The notes: generated by a model not told the origin, from the sequence alone. A stretch of 64,000 nt of DNA from Escherichia phage vB_EcoM_ESCO32 (OM386658.1); one strand, 5' to 3'. Shown: positions 32,822 to 43,961, counted from the stretch's first letter. Translations and numbers: made by a program.

Positions 32822-32850
32822 AAAAAGAAAGGGCGCTTTGTGCGCCCTGG
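32822..32850 (-). terminator. rho-independent terminator (minus strand)
   Basis: GGGCGC-TTTGT-GCGCCC hairpin with T-run on minus strand after gene 32864..33247; same hairpin family at 34304 and 38518. Confidence 0.6.
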
Positions 32851-32863
32851 TGTGAAATGTTAT

Positions 32864-33247: not shown

Positions 33248-33322
33248 GGTGATTCCTCGTTTACCGTTTAAAATTGCTTGCCCTACACGATAACTATAAG
33301 TTAACAGAGGCTATAAAGCAAG

Positions 33323-33553
33323 TTATTTTTCAAAAAATTTTTCTGCTGTGATATTCTTCCCAGTGGGGTTAGCTACTTTCAAAATTTTATCATGTACTGG
33401 ACGCCCGAAAGAATAAGATCCGTATACAGTAAACCAATAATCGCCGTCAGGCTGTACTATTACCGCCGCATAGGGTACGCCTTTTTCGTTATTGCTGACA
33501 AAATAGATCACATTGCCGTTAATAGCCTCAGCGCGTTTAATTTGTTCGATCAT
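33323..33553 (-). CDS. hypothetical protein
   Basis: Track ORF; preceded by PeSL-like cassette. Confidence 0.55.
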   Translation of the reverse strand: MIEQIKRAEAINGNVIYFVSNNEKGVPYAAVIVQPDGDYWFTVYGSYSFGRPVHDKILKVANPTGKNITAEKFFEK

Positions 33554-33571
33554 GATATGATTCCTATATTG

Positions 33572-33632
33572 GGCGGGAAACCATTTCCCGCCTTACGTGA
33601 TACATCTTAGTATAAGGGCGATCCGGTGTCAA
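33572..33632 (-). promoter_or_regulatory. PeSL-like cassette (early promoter + 5' stem-loop)
   Basis: Minus strand TTGACA - 17 nt - TAAGAT, then perfect 9-bp hairpin GGCGGGAAA-cca-TTTCCCGCC, then SD and ATG. Confidence 0.55.
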
Positions 33633-33645
33633 TAGATAAAGTTAA

Positions 33646-33882
33646 TTATTTTGCATAATCAATAACAGCGCATATTTTATCATTTACATCTTGTAAATCA
33701 AAGGCATAGGCGATCTTGCCTTGTAATTTTCCACGGGTGAAACAGATACGATAAACGCCGTTTTTACTGTCATCTTCTGATTTTAGTATTTTTGCAACTG
33801 TTGCAATTAACAGATCATCAGAGTAAGCGATAAAACCGCCACGTAAAATAGGTGATTTTTTGAGGATCATGACTTCTTTCAT
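33646..33882 (-). CDS. hypothetical protein
   Basis: Track ORF 33646..33930 trimmed to ATG after AGGAAAAG. Confidence 0.5.
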   Translation of the reverse strand: MKEVMILKKSPILRGGFIAYSDDLLIATVAKILKSEDDSKNGVYRICFTRGKLQGKIAYAFDLQDVNDKICAVIDYAK

Positions 33883-34303
33883 TTTCTTTTCCTGTTTTCG
33901 TTTTGGGTATGTTCTACCCTCTAAAAACAATATTAAACTGTTGTGATTTATCGGTCAATAGATGAGATTGTAAAGATTTGATAGTTTATTCCTTTGATGT
34001 TTTGTTATTTAATAGATATTAGCTATCAATATATAGCGGGATCTTCCGGTGATTATCTTCCCCTGTCCCCAGGTGCCGCCCGTTCCATAATAATAATCAA
34101 AAGCAGGATAAAAGGCAAGATAAAAGGCAAATTATTCCCTATGTGCTTTAAACGCTCTAAACAGCTTTCTAACAGCTTTTTCATCCTGGCAAGGTGATTA
34201 GTCATTGTTACCTTGTTTAAGCGGTTATAATCGGTTTTAGGCTGTTTTACGCCACCTTTTACGTTTATTCTTTACGTGTTACTTCCATCGTGAAAAAAGA
34301 ATA

Positions 34304-34335
34304 CAAAAAAGGGCGCTTAGTGCGCCCCTTTCTTT
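34304..34335 (-). terminator. rho-independent terminator
   Basis: GGGCGC-TTAGT-GCGCCC hairpin flanked by A and T runs. Confidence 0.6.
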
Positions 34336-34344
34336 TACCGTGTA

Positions 34345-34734
34345 TTAATATTCGTTATAATACATCGCTAACTTTTCATCAAAAGCCGATTGACGATCTG
34401 CATACTCCCAAAACATTTCTTGATCCTGTTGTTCGTCATCATCCATCATGTTGAATTGCGCAACCTCCTGGTAAGTGATCGCCATATTATAACGATAGGT
34501 GATCTCTTCTGCGATGTTTTCCGGTAAAGATGATTCTACACTGTCTAACAGCATATTTAACATCATTTCAGCCGCTTTTTCATCATTATCAAAGCAGTAA
34601 GCAGACCATGCCGCATGATGTTTATTTTTCATCTTTGCAATCAAGCCGTTGACTAAAAAAGGCGCTACGTTGTTAACGATACCCTGTAAAGATTGGAATT
34701 TTTCAACGTTAGAAACAGAAACCAGGTTGCGCAT
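34345..34734 (-). CDS. hypothetical acidic protein
   Basis: Track ORF 34345..34770 trimmed to ATG (longer form would run through the hairpin). Confidence 0.5.
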   Translation of the reverse strand: MRNLVSVSNVEKFQSLQGIVNNVAPFLVNGLIAKMKNKHHAAWSAYCFDNDEKAAEMMLNMLLDSVESSLPENIAEEITYRYNMAITYQEVAQFNMMDDDEQQDQEMFWEYADRQSAFDEKLAMYYNEY

Positions 34735-34757
34735 AGTATTTACCTTTTTGATTACCT

Positions 34758-34816
34758 GGCGGGAAACCATTTCCCGCCTACGTGGTAAATAATACCATAT
34801 TGGGGATCGGTGTCAA
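34758..34816 (-). promoter_or_regulatory. PeSL-like cassette
   Basis: TTGACA - 16 nt - TATTAT then GGCGGGAAA-cca-TTTCCCGCC hairpin. Confidence 0.55.
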
Positions 34817-34822
34817 TACTTT

Positions 34823-35209
34823 TTATTCAATATAAATCAAATTATCTTCACCAATGTAAGCATGCACCGATGGCATTAATTTAGCTGCATTTGTTAGGCG
34901 GTTGGCGGTGTTAGTAGTGTATATTTCAGGGCGATCCCAAAAGCCTACGCCGTGACCGTTACGGGTGAAATGTAAGTCATTCCCGATCTGGTTTGCTGTT
35001 GCGCCGTCGCTCATTGCCTCAGAGATAGCAGCATCATTGGCATCACAATAAGCCGCTACGTCATGAATGATCCGCTGATGGGCTTGATCTGAAAAATCAT
35101 AATCGTCTAAGTTATCAATAAAATAGCCTTCATGATCCCTGGCGGATTCAGCAAAAATAAAGGCTTCTTTATAACCGTTGATGATTTCAATAATGATTTC
35201 AGTTTTCAT
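34823..35209 (-). CDS. hypothetical protein
   Basis: Track ORF. Confidence 0.55.
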   Translation of the reverse strand: MKTEIIIEIINGYKEAFIFAESARDHEGYFIDNLDDYDFSDQAHQRIIHDVAAYCDANDAAISEAMSDGATANQIGNDLHFTRNGHGVGFWDRPEIYTTNTANRLTNAAKLMPSVHAYIGEDNLIYIE

Positions 35210-35421
35210 GCTGTACGCTCGACAATAATAATGGTTTGCGGTATCTCGTTTTCTACTACTAACAAGGCTTTTTTCTGTGTGATAGATATTTTAACACGTT
35301 GTAAAGTAGCGGTAAAATCTTTCATTTCATTATGCGCGGATTTAGTGCAATGCCATATTTCAGGTTTACCAATTTGCAAGCCGCGTAAAAATTCTGTTTT
35401 ACCTGTCTTATTCGTGATCAT
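35206..35421 (-). CDS. hypothetical protein
   Basis: Track ORF 35206..35439 trimmed to ATG after AAGGTG. Confidence 0.5.
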   Translation of the reverse strand: MITNKTGKTEFLRGLQIGKPEIWHCTKSAHNEMKDFTATLQRVKISITQKKALLVVENEIPQTIIIVERTA

Positions 35422-35431
35422 TTGATTCACC

Positions 35432-35536
35432 TTATCCAATACCGTGGGAAGATAGGATCATGTTAGCCATAGTTGCAACCAATCCAACCGATAACACCAG
35501 GCCAACTACTACAACCGTGAAAATTTTCTCTAACAT
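35432..35536 (-). CDS. small hydrophobic peptide, 34 aa
   Basis: MLEKIFTVVVVGLVLSVGLVATMANMILSSHGIG; GAGGGTAG SD; sits behind a PeSL-like cassette. Confidence 0.35.
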   Translation of the reverse strand: MLEKIFTVVVVGLVLSVGLVATMANMILSSHGIG

Positions 35537-35554
35537 GATTCTACCCTCATTAAT

Positions 35555-35616
35555 GGGCGTTGCCTTATTGCCCCGCCCTATGTCGTACACTTTACCAGAT
35601 AACTGAATATTGTCAA
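35555..35616 (-). promoter_or_regulatory. PeSL-like cassette (variant hairpin)
   Basis: TTGACA - 16 nt - TAAAGT then GGGCG...CGCCC hairpin; approx. Confidence 0.45.
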
Positions 35617-35617
35617 A

Positions 35618-35812
35618 CTATTTTTTACAAGGGATCAGTAAACTTCTTGCTACCGCTTCACGTAAACCTTTACTTTTTATTAAATCTATTGTTGCAGGGT
35701 GGCAAGTAAAAGCCTTTGACCATTTTTGATCACCTGGTTTACGGGCGAAAATGTAAACTTCTCCGTCGATTTCATCCCAACGAGTATTGCTTGTTAGTTT
35801 TTTAAGCGCCAT
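35618..35812 (-). CDS. hypothetical protein
   Basis: Track ORF 35618..35842 trimmed to ATG downstream of hairpin. Confidence 0.5.
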   Translation of the reverse strand: MALKKLTSNTRWDEIDGEVYIFARKPGDQKWSKAFTCHPATIDLIKSKGLREAVARSLLIPCKK

Positions 35813-35835
35813 GCTGATTTCTCTTTTAGTTATGA

Positions 35836-35891
35836 GCGGCACTATTGCCGCCCTACGAAATACATTCTACCCGATTTATAATTGTTGTCAA
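35836..35891 (-). promoter_or_regulatory. PeSL-like cassette
   Basis: TTGACA - 16 nt - TAGAAT then GCGGCA-ctat-TGCCGC hairpin. Confidence 0.5.
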
Positions 35892-35892
35892 A

Positions 35893-36162
35893 CTATTTTT
35901 TCAAGCTCGACCAGTCAAAACACGGGGCGATCTCGTTAAAACTTGTGCCCTGTAAAGCACATAATTTTTTAGCAATAGCCGCCGTGACCTGGCGCTGTAC
36001 GCGCGGATCTGCTACTGATTGGAGAAAGTAGGCGGCTTTATATGTGATCATGCTTTCGCCTGTTTCCTTGTTAACGTGGTGCACGGTTTTAGCCTTATCA
36101 TCTTTTACCAGGGTGTAACCGGATTCGATGGCCTTGATTGCAACGTCCAATGATATTTTCAT
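35893..36162 (-). CDS. hypothetical protein
   Basis: Track ORF. Confidence 0.55.
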   Translation of the reverse strand: MKISLDVAIKAIESGYTLVKDDKAKTVHHVNKETGESMITYKAAYFLQSVADPRVQRQVTAAIAKKLCALQGTSFNEIAPCFDWSSLKK

Positions 36163-36181
36163 GATTTATCTCTTTATTGAT

Positions 36182-36203
36182 GGCGGGGAATACTCCCCCC
36201 GCC
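36182..36203 (-). promoter_or_regulatory. leader stem-loop (PeSL-type hairpin without adjacent -35/-10)
   Basis: GGCGGGGAA-tact-CCCCCCGCC, about 20 nt upstream of gene 35893..36162 start. Confidence 0.4.
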
Positions 36204-36210
36204 TTATTAA

Positions 36211-36381
36211 TTACTCTTCATCGTCGCCGTTGTAGTATTCAATGCCGTTTTCATCGGTTACGGTAATATTAACGCCACCGATAGCAACACGATCACGGGC
36301 AAACGTCATGGCTTCATTTAAATCTTCAGACCAAAAAATATTGTGACCTTTGCGCGATACATAAAACATAGTCGGGATCAT
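36211..36381 (-). CDS. small protein, 56 aa
   Basis: ORF below threshold; AGAAGAGAAAC SD; behind a PeSL-like cassette. Confidence 0.4.
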   Translation of the reverse strand: MIPTMFYVSRKGHNIFWSEDLNEAMTFARDRVAIGGVNITVTDENGIEYYNGDDEE

Positions 36382-36404
36382 GATTTGTTTCTCTTCTGTT
36401 GTGA

Positions 36405-36464
36405 GCGGGAAACCACTTCCCGCCCTATGTGATAAACTTTACTACGTTGTTTTTCTGCTGTCAA
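36405..36464 (-). promoter_or_regulatory. PeSL-like cassette
   Basis: TTGACA - 17 nt - TAAAGT then GCGGGAA-accac-TTCCCGC hairpin. Confidence 0.5.
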
Positions 36465-36465
36465 A

Positions 36466-36750
36466 TTATTTTTTAATGTTTTGCCCTACAAAATTGATCA
36501 CTTCCTTAAGCTGTTTCTCAGTCATGATCGTGCCTGGTAATTCTTCTTTGATTTCTTCCGGTAAATAGATATTACCGCGCCAAGTTAATAAACAACAGTT
36601 TTGATCTTCGCAGATGGAATAAGAGAAGATCCACTCATTATCATTCTCAAGCTCCCAAAAGCACAAAAAATCTTCTTTCCCTAAGTTTTCAACGGTTAAG
36701 CATAATCCGCGACGTGCTGCATAGTTGGAAAGTGCTTTTGTGATCTTCAT
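36466..36750 (-). CDS. hypothetical Cys-rich protein
   Basis: Track ORF. Confidence 0.55.
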   Translation of the reverse strand: MKITKALSNYAARRGLCLTVENLGKEDFLCFWELENDNEWIFSYSICEDQNCCLLTWRGNIYLPEEIKEELPGTIMTEKQLKEVINFVGQNIKK

Positions 36751-36769
36751 AGCTTATCTCTTCTTTTAA

Positions 36770-36832
36770 GGCGGGGAAACCATTTCCCCGCTCTATGAGA
36801 TACAATATACTACCCGTTCGGTGTGCTGTCAA
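36770..36832 (-). promoter_or_regulatory. PeSL-like cassette
   Basis: TTGACA - 17 nt - TATATT then GCGGGGAAA-cca-TTTCCCCGC hairpin. Confidence 0.55.
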
Positions 36833-37156
36833 TCAATAATCTTCAATATTTTCTACATTGACAAAAGCATGTTTATTTTCTAAGTTTTCGCCGTACCATT
36901 GCCCCATGTTGATTTCTGCGGTGCGCAACCAGGACATGCCGCGTTGTATCTTTTTACTTGCAATCTCGATCCGGCTTTTGCATAGTGCTTTCGCTTGCAA
37001 TGTAAAAACACTATTGCCCTGTAATGCTTCCAGGTCATCATGTGCAAGGCGATACTCTTTAAAGCCTGATTCTATCATTTCAATAGCATCAAGTAAACGC
37101 GCGCGATGATAGAAAAAATCAGAGTTATCCAAATAAACACCGATCACAGATTTCAT
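36833..37156 (-). CDS. hypothetical protein
   Basis: Track ORF 36833..37216 trimmed to ATG after AAAAGGG. Confidence 0.5.
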   Translation of the reverse strand: MKSVIGVYLDNSDFFYHRARLLDAIEMIESGFKEYRLAHDDLEALQGNSVFTLQAKALCKSRIEIASKKIQRGMSWLRTAEINMGQWYGENLENKHAFVNVENIEDY

Positions 37157-37256
37157 AATTTTACCCTTTTGTTTGCGGCCTTTGCCGTTTTCAAGATATA
37201 TTTTAAAGCATAACAAAAAATTGTCAAACCTTTAAAGCGTACAACTATAAAACCTA

Positions 37257-37376
37257 TTAAAACACAATATATAACAACATGGCTATAGTAGCAATATAAC
37301 ATAAAACCATGCTTGTTTTCCTTCCTTCCTCATATGCTGGATTTATTACGCTATACTGTACGGGAATAACTTTCAT
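37257..37376 (-). CDS. small protein with hydrophobic C-terminus, 39 aa
   Basis: ORF below threshold; AAGGAAAC SD; approx. Confidence 0.3.
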   Translation of the reverse strand: MKVIPVQYSVINPAYEEGRKTSMVLCYIATIAMLLYIVF

Positions 37377-37385
37377 GTTGTTTCC

Positions 37386-37481
37386 TTAATGTCTTAAAAC
37401 GTGGTTTACAATAGAAACAAGTATACAGAAGAAAAAAGATCCTGACAATAAGATCCCGAAAAATAAATGTAAATAGGGCAT
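37386..37481 (-). CDS. small hydrophobic peptide, 31 aa
   Basis: MPYLHLFFGILLSGSFFFCILVSIVNHVLRH; strong TAAGGAG SD. Confidence 0.35.
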   Translation of the reverse strand: MPYLHLFFGILLSGSFFFCILVSIVNHVLRH

Positions 37482-37485
37482 GGTT

Positions 37486-37788
37486 TTACTCCTTAAAAAA
37501 ATCATTGACAATTAAACTGATAACGCCCAGCACCAGATCACCAGGTAGCGCCGCGCTTTCGTTGTTGCTTATTTGCACTTCCTCACTAGTACCAGCATGA
37601 TAAATCGCATGGTAAGCAATAGTATAATAACCTTTCGTTATTTCTTTAAGATTAATGATTAGCACGTTATTTGTTTCATCTTGAAACAATTTAGCGGTGA
37701 TAGTATTGTTTTCTTTTACACTATCGACTTTTATTGATGGATCAGTTACACCAGAAAAAAGAAAAAACGTTTTAGCTATGCCGTTCAT
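37486..37788 (-). CDS. hypothetical protein
   Basis: Track ORF; AAAGGAG SD. Confidence 0.6.
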   Translation of the reverse strand: MNGIAKTFFLFSGVTDPSIKVDSVKENNTITAKLFQDETNNVLIINLKEITKGYYTIAYHAIYHAGTSEEVQISNNESAALPGDLVLGVISLIVNDFFKE

Positions 37789-37835
37789 GTAGTTCTCCTT
37801 TGTTGTGTGTATCTTATAACGTGCTTTCTATGTTG

Positions 37836-38237
37836 TCAATCTTTTATCTCGGTGCATTTTGCTAGGGTATACGTTGCAAGTGCTGACACTAGTTTTTCAT
37901 TGCTACGATCTGCGGCTGTACTGTGTACTTTTTGAATACTTTTTAGCCACGGCGTAAAGTTTTGAGTAGTAAGCACACTAGTAATAATTTCACATGGCAC
38001 GTTTTCATTTAAACCGTTAGCTATAGATTTATCTATTTTTGCCGTTAGTTGTGTAACAGCACCATAAGCGATCATGTGTGAATCCTCCATGATTTCATCG
38101 GGGATCGCATTATTAATGATCATCACGTTTTCCATTGCATCAACGGCGCTTAATTCTGCTACTGTGGAGGATATTGCCGCGTGAGATGTTCCAACCATGC
38201 CAAAAGAGATTAAACCAGCGATCAATAATTTTTTCAT
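37836..38237 (-). CDS. predicted secreted/periplasmic protein (signal peptide)
   Basis: Track ORF trimmed to MKKLLIAGLISFGMVGTSHA-AISS: n/h/c regions with AxA-type cleavage site. Confidence 0.55.
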   Translation of the reverse strand: MKKLLIAGLISFGMVGTSHAAISSTVAELSAVDAMENVMIINNAIPDEIMEDSHMIAYGAVTQLTAKIDKSIANGLNENVPCEIITSVLTTQNFTPWLKSIQKVHSTAADRSNEKLVSALATYTLAKCTEIKD

Positions 38238-38245
38238 TTCTTGCC

Positions 38246-38428
38246 TCATATATGTTTTATTGAGATTATATTGTCACTATATACAACGTTTTTCAACGTG
38301 TCAATAAAAATCTTATTGCCTTCAATCCCCAGGATCACGCCGCTAGTTATGAAGCCATATTGATCACGGTATCGGGCGCATAACCTTTGCCCCTGGGCTA
38401 GTGCCTTGCTTATTTCTTCTAATCTCAT
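38246..38428 (-). CDS. hypothetical protein
   Basis: Track ORF; AGGAG SD. Confidence 0.55.
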   Translation of the reverse strand: MRLEEISKALAQGQRLCARYRDQYGFITSGVILGIEGNKIFIDTLKNVVYSDNIISIKHI

Positions 38429-38517
38429 TTTAAAGCTCCTGTAAAGCCGTCTAACGTTGATTTATAGGCTTGCCCTGGCGTTACCATTGCCTATGGGTAA
38501 CAAGCCTCTATATAAGC

Positions 38518-38546
38518 TAAAAGGGCGCTTATTGCGCCCTTTTTTG
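38518..38546 (-). terminator. rho-independent terminator
   Basis: GGGCGC-TTATT-GCGCCC hairpin plus T-run. Confidence 0.6.
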
Positions 38547-38684
38547 TTATTCGTTCCAGTATCTTTTTGTGCTGCGATCTCTTTTTGTTTTGTTCCGCTT
38601 ATCGCCTTTCTTGGTGATCTCTTCGTTCCAATTTTTACGCGCCTTGCTGCGGTTGAATTTTTCGATCTGCTGTGATGCGTTCAT
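38547..38684 (-). CDS. small basic protein, 45 aa
   Basis: ORF below threshold; AGAGGAAAAAAC SD and own terminator. Confidence 0.4.
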   Translation of the reverse strand: MNASQQIEKFNRSKARKNWNEEITKKGDKRNKTKRDRSTKRYWNE

Positions 38685-38699
38685 GTTTTTTCCTCTTAA

Positions 38700-39059
38700 T
38701 TACGCCACGTTATGCTGTTTTGCCAGGATTACGATCATGCTTGCAATATATAACCAATAATTTTCCCGCTCACGGGTAACGGTTGTTTCTTTGCTTGTTT
38801 CTTTTATGTACTTCCATTCAATTAACAAGTGATCGATCTCGTTATAATCAAAAGCAATATTGACTTCTGACGGTAAACCTTGTAACCATGAGGCTATTGC
38901 CTTGATCACGTTATAATTGTAACGTTTTTGATTATCGGGATACCAGTATTCAGAGTTAAAACGGCGCATCAGTTCGGTGATCTTTTCTTTTTCGGTTGTA
39001 GTACCATCAAAAGAAATAGCCGACACAATGTAAGTTTTAATTGCTTTTACTGATTTCAT
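38700..39059 (-). CDS. hypothetical protein
   Basis: Track ORF; behind PeSL-like cassette. Confidence 0.6.
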   Translation of the reverse strand: MKSVKAIKTYIVSAISFDGTTTEKEKITELMRRFNSEYWYPDNQKRYNYNVIKAIASWLQGLPSEVNIAFDYNEIDHLLIEWKYIKETSKETTVTRERENYWLYIASMIVILAKQHNVA

Positions 39060-39079
39060 AATCTTATCTCTTTATTGAT

Positions 39080-39139
39080 GGCGGGAAACCATTTCCCGCC
39101 GTTGTTGTTACTTTACTTATAAATGATGCTACTGTCAAA
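39080..39139 (-). promoter_or_regulatory. PeSL-like cassette
   Basis: TTGACA - 17 nt - TAAAGT then GGCGGGAAA-cca-TTTCCCGCC hairpin then conserved leader ATCAATAAAGAGATAA. Confidence 0.55.
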
Positions 39140-39145
39140 CGGATA

Positions 39146-39316
39146 TTATTTGTTTTTTAACGTTAATGTTCCCAGCTTATCAGCGTGACGCAGACCAGGA
39201 AAGATCCATTTTCCTGATTCATCTTTTACCGGGGCTTTAAGCGTAGCGCCCAGATTGGCGGCATTAACTTTACGTGCAACGTTGCGAGCGGCTTCACGGG
39301 TGGCGAAAGTGATCAT
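39146..39316 (-). CDS. small protein, 56 aa
   Basis: ORF below threshold; AGAGGAAAACACC SD; behind PeSL-like cassette. Confidence 0.4.
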   Translation of the reverse strand: MITFATREAARNVARKVNAANLGATLKAPVKDESGKWIFPGLRHADKLGTLTLKNK

Positions 39317-39340
39317 GGTGTTTTCCTCTTCTCTTTGTTA

Positions 39341-39401
39341 GGCGGTGGGCTATTCCACCGCCTTGATGAATATAGTTTACTTTATTTTGTTAAGATTGCA
39401 A
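39341..39401 (-). promoter_or_regulatory. PeSL-like cassette (variant)
   Basis: TTGCAA - 16 nt - TAAACT then GGCGGTGG-gctatt-CCACCGCC hairpin. Confidence 0.45.
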
Positions 39402-39407
39402 GCGGTT

Positions 39408-39623
39408 TTATGAAATAATTGTCAAAGTAAAATCATAATCTTTTGACAGTTTATATTGTACCTTGTTCCCGTAATAGTCACCTTTACGTAAAGATCCGCG
39501 AATACCTATTACATCCTTTACATCTTTAAGATTTTTCACGCCTGTAATGTCTTTATTGAAATGATCGTGATCAGAAAATAAAACCTGCTTTGCATTTTTT
39601 AACAATGTGCGGATATTAGCCAT
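39408..39623 (-). CDS. hypothetical protein
   Basis: Track ORF. Confidence 0.55.
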   Translation of the reverse strand: MANIRTLLKNAKQVLFSDHDHFNKDITGVKNLKDVKDVIGIRGSLRKGDYYGNKVQYKLSKDYDFTLTIIS

Positions 39624-39645
39624 TTGATAATCTCTCTCACTATGA

Positions 39646-39701
39646 GCGGCACTATTGCCGCCCTATGAATTACATTTTACTAATTTTAGTTATCTTGTCA
39701 A
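39646..39701 (-). promoter_or_regulatory. PeSL-like cassette
   Basis: TTGACA - 16 nt - TAAAAT then GCGGCA-ctat-TGCCGC hairpin. Confidence 0.5.
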
Positions 39702-39709
39702 TATTATTT

Positions 39710-39937
39710 TTAGTTTAATGCATCCAGGCACAACAAGCGATCAACATTTAGATCGGTTAGGCTAATCGTTGGCACCTGGTAGGATTCGATATATTCGACG
39801 CTCGACCACTGACCAAAATTAGCGACCGCCCAGCTATTCAAGGAAGAGTGAAGATCATCCCCTTTCTTCTCTGTGATGACTGCTACTACCTGGGAGCTTC
39901 CAACCGTACCGGATACGCGAACAATAACGATAGCCAT
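39710..39937 (-). CDS. hypothetical protein
   Basis: Track ORF. Confidence 0.55.
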   Translation of the reverse strand: MAIVIVRVSGTVGSSQVVAVITEKKGDDLHSSLNSWAVANFGQWSSVEYIESYQVPTISLTDLNVDRLLCLDALN

Positions 39938-39959
39938 AATTATAACCTTTCTTTGATTT

Positions 39960-40019
39960 GGCGGGAAACCATTTCCCGCCCTATGTGATAAACTATACCA
40001 GAATATAAAACGTTGTCAA
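39960..40019 (-). promoter_or_regulatory. PeSL-like cassette
   Basis: TTGACA - 16 nt - TATAGT then GGCGGGAAA-cca-TTTCCCGCC hairpin. Confidence 0.55.
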
Positions 40020-40028
40020 CTGTTTTTA

Positions 40029-40268
40029 TTACATTCCAACCATAGCGGCACGGATTGCAGTTTTACTATACTTGAATCCGTCCGGTGTTTTATCTTGTCC
40101 AGTTTGCTCCAGGAATAACATCATATCACGCGCGGCATCATTCTTATTTGTATTAGCTGCGATAAATTCACGCGCAAGATTATAAAAACCTTCATCGTTG
40201 TTGATCCAAAGGCTTACATTCCAATGAGTTTTGTTTTTGTGACCGTTGTACATTTTAGATTTAGCCAT
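40029..40268 (-). CDS. hypothetical protein
   Basis: Track ORF 40029..40325 trimmed to ATG downstream of hairpin. Confidence 0.5.
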   Translation of the reverse strand: MAKSKMYNGHKNKTHWNVSLWINNDEGFYNLAREFIAANTNKNDAARDMMLFLEQTGQDKTPDGFKYSKTAIRAAMVGM

Positions 40269-40292
40269 GATGTTAATCTCTTTTTCAGTGAG

Positions 40293-40351
40293 GCGGGAAC
40301 TATTCCCGCTCTCTATGCAAAACATTATACGCCTTTAAACCTAGTTTGCAA
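40293..40351 (-). promoter_or_regulatory. PeSL-like cassette
   Basis: TTGCAA - 16 nt - TATAAT then GCGGGAA-ctat-TCCCGC hairpin. Confidence 0.5.
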
Positions 40352-40370
40352 GTGCTTTTTAAAAATATGC

Positions 40371-40601
40371 TTAGATTGCAATCGCGTCTAGGCTATAATA
40401 ATAATAAGTGCCGTATTGGTGTACTTTATTACCTTTTATTTCAGTGCTGAATGAATCCGAACGATTAGCATATGATGTTAATTTATAATACTTTGCTTTA
40501 CTAATACGTTGCCATACACCGCAGATCCGCTGTAAGTAAGTAGTTTTATTAGTAGTAGTATCTTTTACGGTTTTAACTTCGGTCATATACATATTAGCCA
40601 T
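40371..40601 (-). CDS. hypothetical protein
   Basis: Track ORF 40371..40634 trimmed to ATG downstream of hairpin. Confidence 0.5.
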   Translation of the reverse strand: MANMYMTEVKTVKDTTTNKTTYLQRICGVWQRISKAKYYKLTSYANRSDSFSTEIKGNKVHQYGTYYYYSLDAIAI

Positions 40602-40621
40602 TTTATTATACCTAGTTATAG

Positions 40622-40683
40622 GCGGGGGAACCATTCCCCCGTCCTGATATGAAACATTTTACGCTTTTTATTCGTGCTGTCAA
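40622..40683 (-). promoter_or_regulatory. PeSL-like cassette
   Basis: TTGACA - 16 nt - TAAAAT then GCGGGGGAA-cca-TTCCCCCG hairpin. Confidence 0.5.
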
Positions 40684-40689
40684 TGCTTT

Positions 40690-41055
40690 TTATAAATCTT
40701 TTTTACGTTTAACATCGCTTGCATGACTGTATACAGCGATCCCATTGTCACGGCAAAAACGGGAAAGGTAAGCATAATTTGAAAAGTCTTTGCCTTCCAG
40801 GTTGATGACCTTGCTAAACTCTTCCAGGGCAACGGTATCAAAATGATCCCCGTAACCATAGTGAAACGGAACGTTAACGACTTCAATCAGTTTACCGCCG
40901 ATCTCAACGTCAACCATCAAAGAGAAATAAGTATTACCATAAGACTTTTGAAACCAGCGACGGGCGCTAATATGTACCGCTTCAATGCTGGATAGTTCAA
41001 TTTTAGCAGTGTTAGCCAGGGTAGCATAAGCAGAAACATTGATATTTTTAGCCAT
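40690..41055 (-). CDS. hypothetical protein
   Basis: Track ORF. Confidence 0.55.
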   Translation of the reverse strand: MAKNINVSAYATLANTAKIELSSIEAVHISARRWFQKSYGNTYFSLMVDVEIGGKLIEVVNVPFHYGYGDHFDTVALEEFSKVINLEGKDFSNYAYLSRFCRDNGIAVYSHASDVKRKKDL

Positions 41056-41150
41056 AGTCTTTAATCTCTTTTGATTAGTTAGGAGTATTCCCGATAAAAG
41101 TTATTATGCTTGTACTATCGTTCGTTGTCAATAGCACAAGACTAAAACTT

Positions 41151-41330
41151 TTAACGATAATCATCATATGCTTTATTGACCTGGCGAATATAGCATTCAA
41201 AAGCTAGATCAATAGATTTATATTCACGGATATAATTACCATAGGAAACCACATACATTTCTATAGCTTCCTCATATGCCAGGAGGATAGAATCTAAACC
41301 TACGATCTCAGTCTTCGCAATAATAGCCAT
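41151..41330 (-). CDS. hypothetical protein, 59 aa
   Basis: ORF just below track threshold; TAAGGAATAAAAGC SD; own TTGACA-16-TATAAT promoter. Confidence 0.45.
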   Translation of the reverse strand: MAIIAKTEIVGLDSILLAYEEAIEMYVVSYGNYIREYKSIDLAFECYIRQVNKAYDDYR

Positions 41331-41389
41331 GCTTTTATTCCTTAGTAATGTTTCAATCTATATAAGCATTATAGCTTACTGATTTTAGG

Positions 41390-41472
41390 TGTCAACTGAT
41401 TTTTTATTTCACCTTTGAGAAGTTGCCCCGCTCTATGTGGTACATATTACGGGGCTTGTTTGCATATGTCAA
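41390..41472 (-). promoter_or_regulatory. tandem sigma70-like promoters with variant leader hairpin
   Basis: Two TTGACA boxes about 77 nt apart with TATAAT / TAATAT -10 elements and GCCCCG...CGGGGC hairpin between them; approx. Confidence 0.4.
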
Positions 41473-41475
41473 CCC

Positions 41476-42030
41476 TTACACAATGCAATTTTCATAATTT
41501 TTTAAGGCTTGTATTTTTTCCTCTTCTGTCGGCGTGTATGGCTGGATCTCTTCCTCTTCCATGTTAGGCATGATTTCTTCCTCTTCCTCCTGGTCGTCCT
41601 GGTCTTCCTCTTGCGCTATGGTAACAAGTTTATTGATCTTCTCCTGGGCTTTAATCAATTTTGCATCTAGCACCATTTTAGCGGTGTTGTATACAGTCCA
41701 TGCCATGCGCTTTTCTTCGTATGCCTTATCTAGTGCGGCTAATTTAGCGGGATACTCTTCTAACACCTTAAAAGCCGGATCAATGCTATATAAGGGATTA
41801 TTTTTAGCGTCATCGCTTGGATCTGCGGCGCTTGCAATGTCAGCGTTACCGTTTGCCAGCCAACCAGGGCGAACGGATCGCGTCTTTGTGTGACCGTTGC
41901 TCTTTGCCGCTCGATTCCCTATCTGCTCCCCGCTGTACCCTACCATGTGATCGATCATGTCATCTGGTATTATGCGCGGATCATTAGCGTCATGCTTTAC
42001 CCATGACTGGATCACATATTCACGCCCCAT
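41476..42030 (-). CDS. hypothetical protein with acidic coiled-coil C-terminus
   Basis: Track ORF. Confidence 0.6.
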   Translation of the reverse strand: MGREYVIQSWVKHDANDPRIIPDDMIDHMVGYSGEQIGNRAAKSNGHTKTRSVRPGWLANGNADIASAADPSDDAKNNPLYSIDPAFKVLEEYPAKLAALDKAYEEKRMAWTVYNTAKMVLDAKLIKAQEKINKLVTIAQEEDQDDQEEEEEIMPNMEEEEIQPYTPTEEEKIQALKNYENCIV

Positions 42031-42292
42031 GTTCGTTCGCCTCTTCTGTTAGTAGTTTACACACCTTAAACATGCTTGCCGCGTCTTTTGACGGTAGCCA
42101 GCCTATGCGATACACTCCAGGATCTGGATTCGTTATATCCGTTAGTTGGGCATTACGATGATTAAAAATAGTGTAACCGCCGCCAGCACGGGGATAAACA
42201 TTATCTTTAAACCTGATAGCGTATCTCGCCAGGTTGAACGTCGTAGCATGTTCAAAAGCGATCACATTATCAAAAACTTTTAGAAAAAACAA
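42020..42292 (-). CDS. hypothetical protein
   Basis: Track ORF, TTG start 7 nt after GGAGGA. Confidence 0.5.
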   Translation of the reverse strand: MFFLKVFDNVIAFEHATTFNLARYAIRFKDNVYPRAGGGYTIFNHRNAQLTDITNPDPGVYRIGWLPSKDAASMFKVCKLLTEEANEHGA

Positions 42293-42294
42293 GA

Positions 42295-42441
42295 TTATCC
42301 TCCCCAGCGTTTAAAGCCCGTTGCACGGTTATTTTTTAACTCTCGTTTTAGTCTCTTGCAACGGTTTACAAGTGCAAACCGTGCCGGAGTGGTAACAGTA
42401 GCGCCGTTTTTGGTGTGAATACTCATTACATATTGTTTCAT
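42295..42441 (-). CDS. small basic protein, 48 aa
   Basis: ORF below threshold; AGGATAAAA SD; behind PeSL-like cassette. Confidence 0.35.
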   Translation of the reverse strand: MKQYVMSIHTKNGATVTTPARFALVNRCKRLKRELKNNRATGFKRWGG

Positions 42442-42460
42442 AAAGTTTTATCCTATGTAA

Positions 42461-42513
42461 GCGGGAACTATTCCCGCTTTAAGATAGCTTATCAGGTTTT
42501 AGTGCAATGTCAA
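42461..42513 (-). promoter_or_regulatory. PeSL-like cassette
   Basis: TTGACA - 16 nt - TAAGCT then GCGGGAA-ctat-TCCCGC hairpin. Confidence 0.5.
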
Positions 42514-42519
42514 CCGTTT

Positions 42520-42882
42520 TTATTCGTAAATTTTACCGCTTTCCACCCATACCATAACACGGCGCATGTTATCCCATGCATCTTGTCGCAGATTTAAGGC
42601 ATGCAATTCTTCCGTGGTGCTCATACCTGGAACGGGCTTATTATACGTTACAAAGAGATCGCCAGCATATTCATAAGCCAGGGTAAGATCACATTGAATC
42701 ATCTTTTTAATCATAGCATCAAGCATCATATTAGCGGCATGTTGATCACGTTTTAACGGTAATGTCGCGATCTGTGTGCGATAGCTTTCGATCCGTGCAT
42801 CCACTGCATCACGCGAAAGATTTTTCACGTCATCGCGGAAAGATACCAGGTTTAACATGATAGTATTGATTTGCTTGCTCAT
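42520..42882 (-). CDS. hypothetical protein
   Basis: Track ORF. Confidence 0.6.
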   Translation of the reverse strand: MSKQINTIMLNLVSFRDDVKNLSRDAVDARIESYRTQIATLPLKRDQHAANMMLDAMIKKMIQCDLTLAYEYAGDLFVTYNKPVPGMSTTEELHALNLRQDAWDNMRRVMVWVESGKIYE

Positions 42883-42904
42883 TGTGTTACCCTTTCTTTG
42901 ATTT

Positions 42905-42964
42905 GGCGGGAAACCATTTCCCGCCCTATGTGGTATATATTACTAAATTATTTTTCAGTGTCAA
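42905..42964 (-). promoter_or_regulatory. PeSL-like cassette
   Basis: TTGACA - 16 nt - TAATAT then GGCGGGAAA-cca-TTTCCCGCC hairpin. Confidence 0.55.
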
Positions 42965-42967
42965 GCC

Positions 42968-43240
42968 TTAAAGCAAAAATGCTACATCTTGCGCTTTTAG
43001 TGTAGTGTCGATCATTTTCGGGCTTTTATAATCAACAAAGCGCGCGGTTTTTTCAATAGCGAAACCTAAATAATCTTGCTTATTGAAATTACATTCTTTT
43101 TTAAATGTTTCCCGTGCCACGGTGATCGCTGCATCCAGGGATAAACGCCCATCAATATTAATATTAGCGAAAGATCCGCCACCGCGCATAGGTTTACCAG
43201 TGATACCCATTACGATCATTGATGCGCTATATGATGCCAT
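42968..43240 (-). CDS. hypothetical protein
   Basis: Track ORF. Confidence 0.55.
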   Translation of the reverse strand: MASYSASMIVMGITGKPMRGGGSFANINIDGRLSLDAAITVARETFKKECNFNKQDYLGFAIEKTARFVDYKSPKMIDTTLKAQDVAFLL

Positions 43241-43254
43241 GATTATTTCTCTCT

Positions 43255-43310
43255 TCTGTTATGAGCGGCACTATTGCCGCCCTATGTGATACATCTTATC
43301 AGATTAAAAA
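43255..43310 (-). promoter_or_regulatory. PeSL-like cassette
   Basis: TTGATA - 16 nt - TAAGAT then GCGGCA-ctat-TGCCGC hairpin. Confidence 0.5.
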
Positions 43311-43328
43311 ACGTTATCAAGAATATTT

Positions 43329-43424
43329 TTAAAAAATAATAACCGCTACTACAACCCAAAATGGAACGGCGAGAATGATAGCGTTAATCGTTCCAACCGC
43401 CAAGCTGTTTTCTTTCTTGATCAT
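43329..43424 (-). CDS. small hydrophobic peptide, 31 aa
   Basis: MIKKENSLAVGTINAIILAVPFWVVVAVIIF; weak SD; approx. Confidence 0.3.
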   Translation of the reverse strand: MIKKENSLAVGTINAIILAVPFWVVVAVIIF

Positions 43425-43692
43425 CGTTATCAACCTTTTATAAGTAATGTTATTGTGACGGTGGATTGTGGAGATCCTCACCTTTGCCCGTCCTGCATTG
43501 CGCCCTCCTTTTGTTTATTGTCGTTGTGCCTCGCCCCCCTCGACAAGATGAATAATACGCTACCAGGTGAGGAACGTCAACCCCTTTTTTAATCTTTTTT
43601 TCATTTCTTTTTTGCTTGCTATCTATAAAGGAAAGGGGCTATTATCTTTCTACCGCGCCAACCAGGGCGCACATCAAAGAAAGGGCGATACC

Positions 43693-43959: not shown

Positions 43960-43961
43960 TA

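What the first reader, a model, noticed from the sequence alone, without database searches (positions are those of the whole stretch)
33572..43310. About 10-kb array of promoter + stem-loop + small-ORF cassettes (PeSL-like hyperplastic region)
At least 15 intergenic regions on the minus strand repeat one design: TTGACA-like -35, 16-17 nt, TAnnnT -10, then a near-perfect palindromic hairpin (most often GGCGGGAAA-cca-TTTCCCGCC, with variants GCGGCA-ctat-TGCCGC and GCGGGAA-ctat-TCCCGC), a short conserved leader and a small ORF of 30-130 aa. This matches the promoter-early-stem-loop (PeSL) elements described for T4-type phages, which are thought to mediate modular gene shuffling. Density here is about one cassette per 350-600 bp, and several cassettes drive ORFs below 60 aa that the track does not list.
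Basis: partly seen in the sequence, partly recalled or inferred. Interest (0 to 1): 0.7.

Follow-up and report, generated by a model that had tools for sequence, protein, structure and literature searches.

The report
Repeated early promoter–hairpin gene cassettes
A 10-kb stretch of a phi92-like E. coli phage carries about 15 copies of one ~85-bp expression cassette (host-type promoter, a hairpin at the very start of the mRNA, a standard leader), each driving small genes of unknown function. Related and unrelated phages have gained, lost and swapped genes at these cassettes.

Summary
On the minus strand of 33.3-43.6 kb there are about 22 strong sigma-70-type promoters. Fifteen are followed 9-12 nt after the -10 by a GC-rich 7-9 bp hairpin, an open purine-rich leader and a small ORF. 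None is expected by chance.

The window is a phi92-like myovirus (Justusliebigvirus). The array runs toward the right genome end and is the only place in the genome with this hairpin.

The PeSL analogy is partly supported.
- Supported: the cassettes sit in a hyperplastic ORFan region. In five relatives, 28 of 35 indel or replacement breakpoints fall inside them, with chimeric cassettes at the junctions.
- Supported and extended: whole modules are shared at 80-95% identity with rV5-like and jumbo PBECO4-like phages.
- Not supported: the hairpin is not placed or built like a PeSL terminator. It lies downstream of the predicted start site, has no U-tract, and real terminators occur elsewhere in the array.

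Stem changes keep pairing in the sense RNA. I read the hairpin as a 5'-terminal mRNA stem-loop, most likely protecting and insulating short early transcripts, within a repeat that also serves as a recombination substrate. This is a new variant of a known kind. No transcript ends were mapped.

The parts
33248..43580 (-). Whole array: about 32 small minus-strand genes (31-184 aa), about 22 sigma-70-type promoters, 16 cassette hairpins. It is transcribed toward the phi92-type right genome end.
   Evidence: homologous to phi92 gp225-gp248
43238..43320 (-). Cassette: TTGATA-16-TAAGAT, hairpin 43263-43282 GGGCGGCAatagTGCCGCTC (one G.U), leader, ATG 43240 (90 aa)
42880..42964 (-). Cassette: TTGACA-16-TAATAT, hairpin 42905-42925 GGCGGGAAAtggTTTCCCGCC, ATG 42882 (120 aa)
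42439..42513 (-). Cassette: TTGACA-16-TAAGCT, hairpin 42459-42479 AAGCGGGAAtagTTCCCGCTT, ATG 42441. Drives three coupled genes (48, 90, 184 aa).
40599..40683 (-). Cassette: TTGACA-16-TAAAAT, hairpin 40623-40641 CGGGGGAAtggTTCCCCCG, ATG 40601 (76 aa). The module is 89% identical to jumbo phage PBECO4.
40266..40351 (-). Cassette: TTGCAA-16-TATAAT, hairpin 40293-40309 GCGGGAAtagTTCCCGC, ATG 40268 (79 aa). PBECO4-type cassette (AGTACTTGCAA...).
39935..40019 (-). Cassette: TTGACA-16-TATAGT, hairpin 39960-39980 GGCGGGAAAtggTTTCCCGCC, ATG 39937 (75 aa)
39621..39701 (-). Cassette: TTGACA-16-TAAAAT, hairpin 39644-39663 GGGCGGCAatagTGCCGCTC, ATG 39623 (71 aa)
39314..39401 (-). Cassette: TTGCAA-16-TAAACT, hairpin 39340-39363 AGGCGGTGGaatagcCCACCGCCT, ATG 39316 (56 aa)
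39057..39138 (-). Cassette: TTGACA-17-TAAAGT, hairpin 39080-39100, ATG 39059 (119 aa, then 45 aa, then the terminator)
36748..36832 (-). Cassette: TTGACA-17-TATATT, hairpin 36771-36791 GCGGGGAAAtggTTTCCCCGC, ATG 36750 (94 aa)
36379..36464 (-). Cassette: TTGACA-17-TAAAGT, hairpin 36403-36425 GGGCGGGAAGtggTTTCCCGCTC (two G.U), ATG 36381 (56 aa)
36182..36203 (-). Hairpin GGCGGGGGGAGTATTCCCCGCC plus a standard leader but no promoter. It lies between the 56-aa gene and the 89-aa gene (ATG 36162), so transcription must read through it.
35810..35891 (-). Cassette: TTGACA-16-TAGAAT, hairpin 35834-35853, ATG 35812 (64 aa)
35534..35616 (-). Cassette with an irregular hairpin (35555-35578, 5+2 bp), ATG 35536. 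Drives 34-, 71- and 128-aa genes. The module is 86% identical to rV5-like slur16.
34732..34816 (-). Cassette: TTGACA-16-TATTAT, hairpin 34758-34778, ATG 34734 (129 aa)
33551..33632 (-). Cassette: TTGACA-17-TAAGAT, hairpin 33572-33592, ATG 33553 (76 aa; the gene is 94% identical to rV5-like slur16)
43552..43580 (-). First promoter of the leftward unit (TTGACG-17-TATTAT), no family hairpin. Its -35 is fused to the -10 of cassette 42513 in phage muut.
41368..41472 (-). Tandem promoters. 41472 is followed by a half hairpin (GAGCGGGGCAAC). 41395 is a perfect TTGACA-16-TATAAT without a hairpin, ATG 41330 (59 aa).
41103..41131 (-). Promoter TTGACA-17-CATAAT with a degenerate half hairpin (CGGGAATACTCC), ATG 41055 (121 aa)
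37200..38304 (-). Three promoters without the family hairpin (-35 at 38304, 37839, 37227)
33930..33958 (-). Promoter TTGACC-17-TAATAT without a hairpin. Its -35 region is one end of a one-gene indel (33640-33953) absent from ZYD, muut, PD211 and tuntematon.
38519..38543 (-). Likely true terminator inside the array: hairpin AAAAGGGCGC..GCGCCCTTTT (read from the sequence; the scan scores it on the plus strand only)
34305..34333 (-). Canonical intrinsic terminator (hairpin + TTTTTT) after the 129-aa gene
32830..32848 (-). Canonical intrinsic terminator after the last gene of the array (32864-33247)

Best explanation
The region is the early accessory-gene (ORFan) array of a phi92-like phage. It is built from repeats of one ~85-bp expression cassette with these parts, in order:
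- an A-rich stretch that includes the stop codon of the preceding gene;
- a near-consensus sigma-70 promoter (TTGACA, 16-17 nt, TAnnnT);
- about 10 nt, often CACATAG;
- a GC-rich 7-9 bp hairpin with an AAURG-type loop;
- about 20 nt of open, purine-rich leader with a weak GAG-type ribosome-binding site;
- ATG.

Inferred mechanism:
1. Unmodified host RNA polymerase starts about 7-8 nt after the -10, so each early mRNA begins with 0-4 free nucleotides followed by the hairpin.
2. This 5'-terminal stem-loop most likely shields the short mRNAs from 5'-end-dependent decay (RppH, then RNase E). It also keeps the standard leader and ribosome-binding site from pairing with whatever ORF follows, so any gene placed behind a cassette is expressed.
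3. It is not a terminator: transcription from upstream promoters reads through it until one of the true terminators.

Shown by comparison: because the cassette is repeated every few hundred bases, homologous recombination between copies deletes, inserts or replaces single-gene modules. Similar cassettes in rV5-like and PBECO4-like phages allow exchange of modules between lineages.
For: Anatomy and statistics:
- 12 strict and 15 total cassettes, against 0 in simulations.
- The hairpin motif occurs only in this segment of a complete relative genome.
- The distance from the -10 to the stem is 9-12 nt in 76 of 96 instances from 8 phages.

Folding:
- All 15 predicted leaders fold with the hairpin at the 5' end (dG -13 to -18.7 kcal/mol, z -2.4 to -6.4). 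The rest of the leader is open.

Selection on pairing:
- 39 distinct hairpin sequences were found.
- On 31 loop-centred copies, 88% of cells are paired against 72% in shuffles and 38-63% when the partner is slid. Seven of 10 pairs change on both sides.
- In orthologous cassettes the stems change at 0.04-0.05 per site, against 0.128 in the promoter spacer and 0.075 at third codon positions.
- Single stem changes are A<->G or C<->U that keep G.U in the sense RNA. Two are compensatory doubles.

Not terminators:
- The tails are A-rich.
- The scan calls canonical minus-strand terminators only at 34333-34305 and 32848-32830. A third terminator-like hairpin at 38519-38543 is scored on the plus strand.
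- The promoter-less hairpin at 36182-36203 sits inside a two-gene unit.

Recombination:
- 28 of 35 unique breakpoints lie in the intergenic cassettes, which make up 25% of the length (p = 6e-11). Junction overlaps are 7-71 bp.
- alia has a chimera of the 40683 promoter with the 40351 hairpin and leader. muut has a chimeric promoter.

Cross-lineage exchange:
- Modules are 86-95% identical to rV5-like slur16, in a different order, and 80-89% identical to jumbo phage PBECO4, which has its own version of the cassette.
- The neighbouring 8 kb has no such hits among the sampled listing.

Established knowledge: RppH and RNase E need single-stranded 5' ends, which explains stabilisation by 5' structures (review PMC3997798).
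Against: - No transcript ends were mapped, so the start site is only predicted.
- With a start at the predicted purine, 3-4 nt stay unpaired. From memory of the ompA work, this is near the upper limit reported for protective 5' hairpins. A start 2 nt further upstream would weaken the effect.
- Other sigma-70-like promoters in the window (for example + strand 49766 and 51618) and about 8 promoters in the array lack the hairpin, so it is not needed for early expression in general.
- Breakpoints in intergenic DNA are also favoured simply because they leave genes intact.
- The hairpin set used for the covariation count was chosen by its ability to pair.
- In T4-type PeSLs, a stem-loop without an obvious requirement for a U-tract reduced downstream expression strongly.
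Confidence: 0.55

Rival explanations
1. Classical PeSL reading: the stem-loop is a terminator or attenuator for transcription coming from the upstream gene. Each cassette is then a terminator-promoter pair that isolates neighbouring genes.
For: PeSL stem-loops of G-run/C-run type behaved like a strong terminator in a reporter (PMC2839356). The GenBank record of the relative ASO2A annotates these hairpins as WebGeSTer 'rho-independent terminators'. The hairpins lie about 45 nt after the stop codon of the upstream gene.
Against: - The hairpin is downstream of the promoter's own start site, so it would also stop that promoter's transcript at about +25.
- The tails are A-rich, and none is called on the minus strand.
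- Canonical terminators with T-runs are used at other places in the same array.
- The promoter-less copy at 36182-36203 precedes a gene that has no promoter of its own.
- The spacing is fixed relative to the -10, not to the upstream stop codon.
Confidence: 0.12
2. The RNA hairpin is a recognition site for a phage- or host-encoded factor. Examples would be an endoribonuclease that shuts off early mRNAs, an N/boxB-like antiterminator, or a factor that marks phage transcripts as self.
For: The apical part is more conserved than needed for pairing alone: A12, T17 and T18 are invariant, and the loop is mostly U(G/A)G in 31 distinct copies. The CACATAG motif is conserved just upstream.
Against: In rV5-like slur16 the hairpins at the same position have quite different stems and loops, which fits a generic structural role better. 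No candidate factor was identified. The first genes of the neighbouring units hit only families of unknown function.
Confidence: 0.13
3. The palindrome acts as double-stranded DNA: an operator at +4 to +25 for a dimeric repressor that turns early promoters off, or a cruciform that stimulates recombination.
For: Perfect palindromes overlap the initial transcribed region, which is a usual operator position. The inner half-sites GGGAA/TTCCC recur. [quoted passage not shown]
Against: - Variation between copies is compensatory rather than conserving one half-site sequence.
- Single changes give G.T on the sense strand, which is C.A on the other strand. This fits sense-strand RNA pairing, not a symmetric DNA site.
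- Crossovers are spread over the whole cassette, not fixed at the palindrome.
Confidence: 0.08
4. The hairpin has no function of its own. It is carried along as part of a repeat that spreads by duplication and recombination.
For: The hairpin occurs only in the variable array, not at other promoters of the phage. Several degenerate half copies exist (41472, 41131, 33321).
Against: Stems evolve more slowly than the promoter spacer and third codon positions, and they change in pairing-preserving ways. The same architecture with unrelated stem sequences occurs in rV5-like phages.
Confidence: 0.08

Closest known systems
PeSLs (promoter-early stem-loops) of T4-type phages (Arbiol et al. 2010, PMC2839356; Comeau et al. 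2014, PMC4122927)
   Same: Both are ~100-bp repeats that combine a near-consensus sigma-70 early promoter, an AT-rich upstream stretch, a G-run/C-run stem-loop, a Shine-Dalgarno site and a start codon. Both are concentrated in hyperplastic regions next to ORFans. In both, indels and replacements between relatives have their ends in the repeats.
   Different: The host phage lineage differs (Stephanstirmvirinae, not T4-like). The stem-loop here is always 9-12 nt downstream of the -10, inside the 5' UTR, rather than between or over the promoter hexamers. It has no terminator features. Exchange with two other phage lineages is seen. Mini-circles were not tested.
5'-terminal stabilising stem-loops of E. 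coli mRNAs (ompA, papA) and of T7 gene 10 mRNA (Emory, Bouvet and Belasco 1992; reviewed in PMC3997798; the T7 case is from memory)
   Same: A stable hairpin lies within a few nucleotides of the predicted 5' end and is followed by an unstructured leader. The stem sequence varies while the pairing is kept.
   Different: Here it is a repeated, mobile part of about 15 cassettes in one array. Its stabilising effect and the true 5' ends have not been measured.
Integron gene-cassette arrays (attC hairpins between small ORFs)
   Same: Both are arrays of small, mostly unknown genes separated by palindromic repeats, with the cassette as the unit of gain and loss.
   Different: Each unit here has its own promoter. 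No integrase is adjacent. Junctions lie at varied positions with 7-71 bp of shared sequence, which indicates homologous rather than site-specific recombination. The hairpins are short perfect stems, not attC-like.
Terminal early 'host-takeover' gene clusters of large virulent phages (SPO1 terminal-repeat module, T5 pre-early region; from memory)
   Same: Both are dense clusters of small genes with strong host-type promoters next to a genome end with direct terminal repeats.
   Different: No shared sequence or proteins were shown. The time of expression and the order of DNA entry are unknown for phi92-like phages.

Membership tests
PeSL (T4-type promoter-early stem-loop) | Near-consensus sigma-70 early promoter with an AT-rich upstream region | tested here: met
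   TTGACA-16/17-TAnnnT, with 10-12 of 12 matches at 22 minus-strand sites, and A-rich stretches before the -35
PeSL (T4-type promoter-early stem-loop) | Stem-loop placed between -35 and -10 or overlapping the -10 (the most common positions) | tested here: not met
   The stem starts 9-12 nt after the -10 in 76 of 96 instances and never lies within the promoter
PeSL (T4-type promoter-early stem-loop) | Stem-loop acts as a terminator or attenuator of upstream transcription | not testable with these tools
   The sequence argues against it: A-rich tails, not called on the minus strand, and a promoter-less copy inside a two-gene unit. Function was not measured.
PeSL (T4-type promoter-early stem-loop) | Preferentially located in hyperplastic regions next to ORFans | tested here: met
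   The motif is confined to this segment of a complete relative genome. Nineteen of 20 proteins hit PHROGs of unknown function and one hit none. Coverage by relatives ranges from 99% down to 1%.
PeSL (T4-type promoter-early stem-loop) | Indel and replacement breakpoints between close relatives lie in the repeats | tested here: met
   28 of 35 breakpoints lie in the cassettes, p = 6e-11, and chimeric cassettes are present
PeSL (T4-type promoter-early stem-loop) | Recombination between flanking copies yields mini-circles | not testable with these tools
   This needs inverse PCR on infected cells or virions
PeSL (T4-type promoter-early stem-loop) | Host genome is a T4-type myovirus | tested here: not met
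   The window is 95-98% identical to Justusliebigvirus phages
5'-terminal mRNA-stabilising stem-loop (ompA type) | Stable hairpin within a few nucleotides of the transcript's 5' end | tested here: inconclusive
   With the predicted start site, 0-4 nt are unpaired and dG is -13 to -18.7 kcal/mol. The start site is predicted, not mapped.
5'-terminal mRNA-stabilising stem-loop (ompA type) | Pairing rather than sequence is what is kept | tested here: met
   39 distinct hairpins; compensatory and G.U-preserving changes. Caveat: the copies were selected by their ability to pair.
5'-terminal mRNA-stabilising stem-loop (ompA type) | Lengthens mRNA half-life in an RppH/RNase E-dependent way | not testable with these tools
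   This needs half-life measurements
Intrinsic (rho-independent) terminator | GC-rich hairpin directly followed by a U-tract on the transcribed strand | tested here: not met
   None of the 16 cassette hairpins passes on the minus strand. Only two non-cassette sites do: 34333-34305 and 32848-32830.
Integron attC cassette | Site-specific recombination at a fixed point by a nearby integrase | tested here: not met
   Junctions lie at different positions in the cassette with 7-71 bp overlaps. No integrase is annotated next to the array in relatives.
Any Rfam RNA family | Match at the gathering score | tested here: not met
   No hit at gathering in the 64-kb window. Only chance-level hits (E 0.2-0.4) in 32.5-44.8 kb.

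The most novel reading that the evidence does not exclude
The promoter / 5'-hairpin / leader cassette is a shared plug-in expression module. It lets at least three unrelated groups of large virulent coliphages (phi92-like, rV5-like and the jumbo PBECO4-like phages) trade single early genes by homologous recombination during co-infection. In that sense it is an integron-like accessory gene pool without an integrase. The hairpin additionally marks these short phage mRNAs as resistant to 5'-end-dependent decay.
Probability: 0.35. Interest if true: 0.7.

Novelty: new variant of a known kind. Interest (0 to 1): 0.55.

Why it matters
It would extend cassette-mediated gene shuffling, so far described only for T4-type phages, to other large coliphages that are widely used in therapy collections. 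It would also show that the shuffling reaches across phage subfamilies.

It would correct a recurring annotation in which these hairpins are labelled as terminators placed between a promoter and its gene.

It offers a compact, naturally standardised early-expression unit: a strong promoter, a 5' protective hairpin and an open leader. Its parts can be tested directly.

It also gives a practical handle for finding the fast-evolving early genes that are likely to act against host functions and defences.

Tried and rejected
- Rfam at gathering score and at relaxed E-value: nothing.
- A first gapped pattern search used the wrong spacing and found nothing. It was replaced by scripts.
- A scan of IMG/VR for the commonest hairpin gave only 3 stretches from 2 contigs, too few to use.
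- A symmetric count of mismatch types across all hairpins was noisy: G.T 8-9, G.A 8, A.C/C.A 3. The orthologue-based count was used instead.
- I looked for an Srd-like or other RNA-decay factor among the first genes of the neighbouring transcription units. Only families of unknown function were hit, so the idea that the hairpins protect phage mRNA from phage-stimulated RNase E stays untested.
- Literature searches for a description of these elements in phi92-like, rV5-like or PBECO4-like phages found none. The rV5 paper lists promoters only. The ASO2A paper only counts promoters and terminators.
- The phi92 genome paper and a 2026 preprint on promoter-terminator coupling are not held, so prior description cannot be excluded.
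- An integron-like site-specific mechanism was rejected because the junction positions vary.
- A plus-strand terminator role was rejected: only 2 of 16 hairpins have a T-rich tail on that strand.

Full report
**What the window is.** The 9.9 kb of the finding is 95-98% identical to E. coli myoviruses of the phi92 group: ZYD, alia, ESCO8, VEcB, muut and phi92 itself (genus Justusliebigvirus, subfamily Stephanstirmvirinae). All genes of the region are on the minus strand and are annotated as hypothetical in every relative inspected. In phi92 the homologous genes are gp225-gp248. They are the last genes before the right direct terminal repeat. The 343-bp phi92 repeat corresponds to window 31409-31751. 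So the array is transcribed toward the phi92-type right genome end. Its last gene (32864-33247) ends about 1.1 kb before the terminal repeat.

**The observation.** Reading the minus strand shows the same intergenic design again and again.
- A strict scan required TTGACA with at most one mismatch, 16-18 nt, TAnnnT, then a perfect GC-rich stem of at least 6 bp beginning 2-20 nt after the -10. It finds 12 sites on the minus strand, all between 33632 and 43320. None appears in 200 Markov-1 simulations of the region.
- With two TTGCAA -35 variants and one irregular hairpin there are 15 promoter+hairpin cassettes. There is also one hairpin+leader without a promoter (36182-36203) and about eight promoters without a full hairpin.
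- The tool's own consensus scan lists 22 sites with at least 10 of 12 matches on the minus strand against 3 on the plus strand.
- In the complete genome of the closest relative (ZYD, 146 kb), the hairpin motif with up to 3 mismatches occurs only in the homologous 78.3-87.3 kb segment.

**Anatomy of the cassette.** A cassette runs from the stop codon of the preceding gene to the ATG of the next gene. It has these parts:
- an A-rich stretch;
- the -35 hexamer, a 16-17 nt spacer, and the -10 hexamer (some with TG upstream);
- about 10 nt, often (G)TATCACATAG;
- the hairpin: 7-9 bp, GC-rich at the base, A-U pairs next to a U(G/A)G or AU(A/G)G loop;
- about 20 nt rich in A and purines, containing AAGAGA-like weak ribosome-binding sites;
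- ATG.

I took the first purine 7-8 nt after the -10 as the start site. The predicted 5' UTRs are then 38-56 nt long, mostly 43-48 nt. All 15 begin with 0-4 unpaired nucleotides followed by the hairpin. The remainder of the leader is predicted open (dG -13 to -18.7 kcal/mol, z -2.4 to -6.4 against dinucleotide shuffles).

**The hairpin is not built like a terminator.**
- None of the cassette hairpins is followed by a T-run on the minus strand; the tails are A-rich.
- The terminator scan calls only 34333-34305 and 32848-32830 on that strand. It scores the hairpin at 38519-38543 on the plus strand only, although on the minus strand its stem also ends in a TTTT run. The phage therefore uses canonical terminators where transcription should stop.
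- The promoter-less hairpin at 36182-36203 lies between the 56-aa gene and the 89-aa gene. The 89-aa gene has no promoter of its own, so polymerase must pass the hairpin.
- Across eight phages, the distance from the -10 to the stem is 9-12 nt in 76 of 96 instances. The hairpin is thus positioned relative to the start of its own transcript.

**Evidence that pairing is selected, and in the sense RNA.**
- The 96 promoter-associated hairpins from the window and seven other phages comprise 39 distinct sequences.
- On 31 distinct loop-centred copies, 88% of cells form pairs, against 72% in shuffles and 38-63% when the partner is slid. Seven of ten pairs show changes on both sides (53 cells against 19.7 in shuffles, 0 of 500 shuffles as high). 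These copies were chosen because they pair, so this count is supportive rather than independent.
- A less circular test uses orthologous cassettes in five relatives. Differences per site are shown below.

| Cassette part | Differences per site |
|---|---|
| -35 hexamer | 0.022 |
| -10 hexamer | 0.062 |
| Promoter spacer | 0.128 |
| Discriminator / initial transcribed region | 0.091 |
| Stems | 0.039-0.053 |
| Loop | 0.063 |
| Leader | 0.060 |
| Codon positions 1 / 2 / 3 | 0.032 / 0.020 / 0.075 |

- The stems are therefore more constrained than the spacer and than third codon positions.
- Single stem substitutions are almost all A<->G or C<->U changes that convert a Watson-Crick pair to G.U, or back, in the sense strand. 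By my count about 7 are allowed transitions and 1-2 are disallowed.
- Two are compensatory doubles: 42919+42911 in PD211 and 43276+43269 in tuntematon.
- The remaining changes swap one perfect hairpin type for another.
- A G.U pair in the sense strand is a C.A mismatch in the other strand. The pattern therefore fits an RNA structure in the mRNA better than a symmetric DNA site.

**Evidence for shuffling.** I chained BLAST alignments of the window against ZYD, alia, muut, PD211 and the Phapecoctavirus tuntematon. This gives 35 unique breakpoints. Twenty-eight lie in the intergenic cassettes, which make up 25% of the length (binomial p = 6e-11). Selection for intact genes would by itself favour intergenic breakpoints. 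However, many junctions show 7-71 bp that belong to both flanks, which is the mark of recombination between repeats.
- alia lacks the 76-aa gene (40371-40601). It has one cassette whose promoter half equals the window's 40683 cassette and whose hairpin and leader equal the 40351 cassette.
- muut lacks 42522-43572. It has a promoter with the -35 of the 43580 promoter and the -10 of the 42513 cassette.
- ZYD, muut, PD211 and tuntematon lack the gene at 33646-33882, with the junction in the shared "atctaTTGAC" of two promoters.
- Crossovers lie at different places along the cassette, so the process looks like homologous rather than site-specific recombination.
- Coverage of the region by the 288 matching phage records ranges from 99% down to 1%, at high identity for what is retained. 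This is the pattern of a hyperplastic region.

**Beyond the phi92 group.**
- tuntematon has 14 strict cassettes of the same design, with further stem variants.
- The rV5-like phage slur16 (Vequintavirinae) has the same architecture in its early region but with much more varied GC-rich hairpins.
- slur16 shares three modules with the window at 86-95% nucleotide identity: 33327-33556, 35208-35628 and 41149-41342. These lie side by side in slur16 but are dispersed in the window.
- The jumbo phage PBECO4 (Asteriusvirus, 348 kb) has its own version: AGTACTTGCAA, 16-17 nt, TATAAT, about 12 nt, GCGGGAAnnnTTCCCGC, leader, ATG.
- PBECO4 shares the window's 40024-40668 at 80-89% identity, including the 40351 cassette, which is of the PBECO4 type.
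- By contrast, a sensitive BLAST of the neighbouring 8 kb (45-53 kb) finds only Stephanstirmvirinae and a few other records. No rV5-like or Asteriusvirus phage appears among the 30 records listed, which were sampled across the whole ranking.
- One 96-nt cassette alone matches 462 places in 142 phage records, with 1-7 places per record among those listed. These include a few Pectobacterium, Enterobacter, Klebsiella and Serratia phages of similar genome size.
- Single-gene modules bounded by these cassettes therefore move between lineages.

**Comparison with what is known.** PeSLs of T4-type phages are composite early-promoter/stem-loop repeats in hyperplastic regions. They mediate indels and replacements, and their stem-loop is described as a terminator or attenuator, usually between the promoter hexamers or over the -10 (PMC2839356; PMC4122927).
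- The present elements share the promoter, the location and the evolutionary behaviour.
- They fail two anatomical features (position and terminator build of the stem-loop), and they are in another phage lineage.
- They work like PeSLs as recombination substrates, but they should not be filed as PeSLs.
- The position of the hairpin matches 5'-terminal stabilising stem-loops. Both RppH and the 5' sensor of RNase E need single-stranded 5' ends, which explains stabilisation by 5' structures (review PMC3997798).
- No Rfam family matches.
- In the literature I could search, I found no description of these elements in phi92-like, rV5-like or PBECO4-like phages. The GenBank record of the relative ASO2A annotates them as a "promoter" followed 10 nt later by a "rho-independent terminator" in front of each gene. 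The accompanying paper only counts them. The phi92 genome paper is not held, so an earlier mention cannot be excluded.

**Most likely mechanism, and what is shown versus inferred.**

Shown:
- the repeats and their fixed geometry;
- pairing conserved in the sense strand;
- the absence of terminator features;
- breakpoints and chimeras inside the cassettes;
- sharing of modules between lineages.

Inferred:
- host RNA polymerase starts 3-4 nt before the hairpin early in infection;
- the hairpin protects these short, mostly monocistronic mRNAs from 5'-end-dependent decay and insulates a standard, open ribosome-binding region from the variable ORF;
- read-through from upstream promoters continues to the true terminators.

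Weak points:
- the start sites are unmapped;
- 3-4 predicted free nucleotides is near the limit for protection;
- about eight promoters in the array and other promoters in the window lack the hairpin.

**Rivals.**
- A true terminator/attenuator, which is the PeSL reading.
- A binding or processing site for a specific factor. The conserved AAURG apex and the CACATAG motif leave room for this.
- A DNA operator or cruciform.
- A functionless passenger of the repeat.

Each rival is given with its test in the report sections.

**Verdict.** The finding is real. It is a new variant of a known kind and of moderate interest. The cross-lineage exchange and the 5'-end role of the hairpin are the parts worth testing.

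Noticed in passing
window 31409-31751 (and the non-coding stretch 31.4-32.8 kb): Both ends of the 343-bp direct terminal repeat of phi92 match the window exactly at 31409-31458 and 31708-31758. The window therefore runs across the phi92-type genome end (a collapsed or permuted assembly). About 1.1 kb without annotated genes, with several AT-rich palindromes, lies between the repeat and the last gene of the array.
   Followed up: partly
window 44222-44332 and 44428-44558: The divergent intergenic region upstream of the array holds an 18-bp-stem AT-rich palindrome (ATGATAATGATTCTCATTtgtaAATGAGAATCATTATCAT), two further AATGAGAAT-type palindromes, and a 67-bp tandem repeat with 2 copies. Relatives annotate repeat_regions here. 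It may be an origin or a regulatory region.
   Followed up: partly
window 34770 and 40634 (hairpin loops AATGG): The ATG inside the hairpin loop is in frame with the downstream gene in at least two cassettes. ORF callers, and at 34770 also the ZYD annotation (426-nt CDS), therefore start the protein inside the hairpin (141 aa instead of 129; 87 aa instead of 76). For the second gene the PHROG profile alignment supports the shorter start.
   Followed up: partly
L016 (MZ726793.1, phage ASO2A) 146.9-151.1 kb: The GenBank record annotates 'promoter' followed about 10 nt later by 'rho-independent terminator predicted by WebGeSTer' directly upstream of many CDSs. This is the same cassette, labelled in a way that makes no transcriptional sense.
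   Followed up: yes
hits H1-H3, H23 (MG065639 and others) and H4 (PQ110661): Records named 'Campylobacter phage A150/A145/A110a/C3' are 95-96% identical to this coliphage region. Phage ZYD is filed under Vequintavirus although it is 98% identical to Justusliebigvirus phages. The host or taxonomy labels are probably wrong.
   Followed up: no
window 32001-44000 compared with its flanks: The array has slightly higher GC than the flanks (0.38-0.42 against 0.35-0.39). Its GC skew is much weaker than that of other minus-strand gene blocks (-0.05 to -0.09 against -0.15 to -0.23). Its sense strand is more A-rich. This fits a different origin or turnover of these genes.
   Followed up: no
window 41368-41472, 41075-41131, 33245-33321: There are decayed cassettes: a promoter with only the 5' half of a hairpin followed 77 bp later by a second perfect promoter; a promoter with the half hairpin CGGGAATACTCC; and a degenerate TTGCTT promoter with GTGTAGGGCAAGC. 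They look like remnants of recombination within cassettes.
   Followed up: partly
start codons of the 32 array genes: Seventeen of 32 proteins begin with MA (ATGGC.) or MK (ATGAA.). The similarity between cassettes may therefore extend into the first two codons, or those second codons may be favoured for expression.
   Followed up: no
L014 (PBECO4) 144-157 kb: The hexamer AGTACT recurs in most intergenic regions of this jumbo-phage early region, directly abutting the -35 (AGTACTTGCAA). It is a lineage-specific addition to the cassette and its role is unknown.
   Followed up: no
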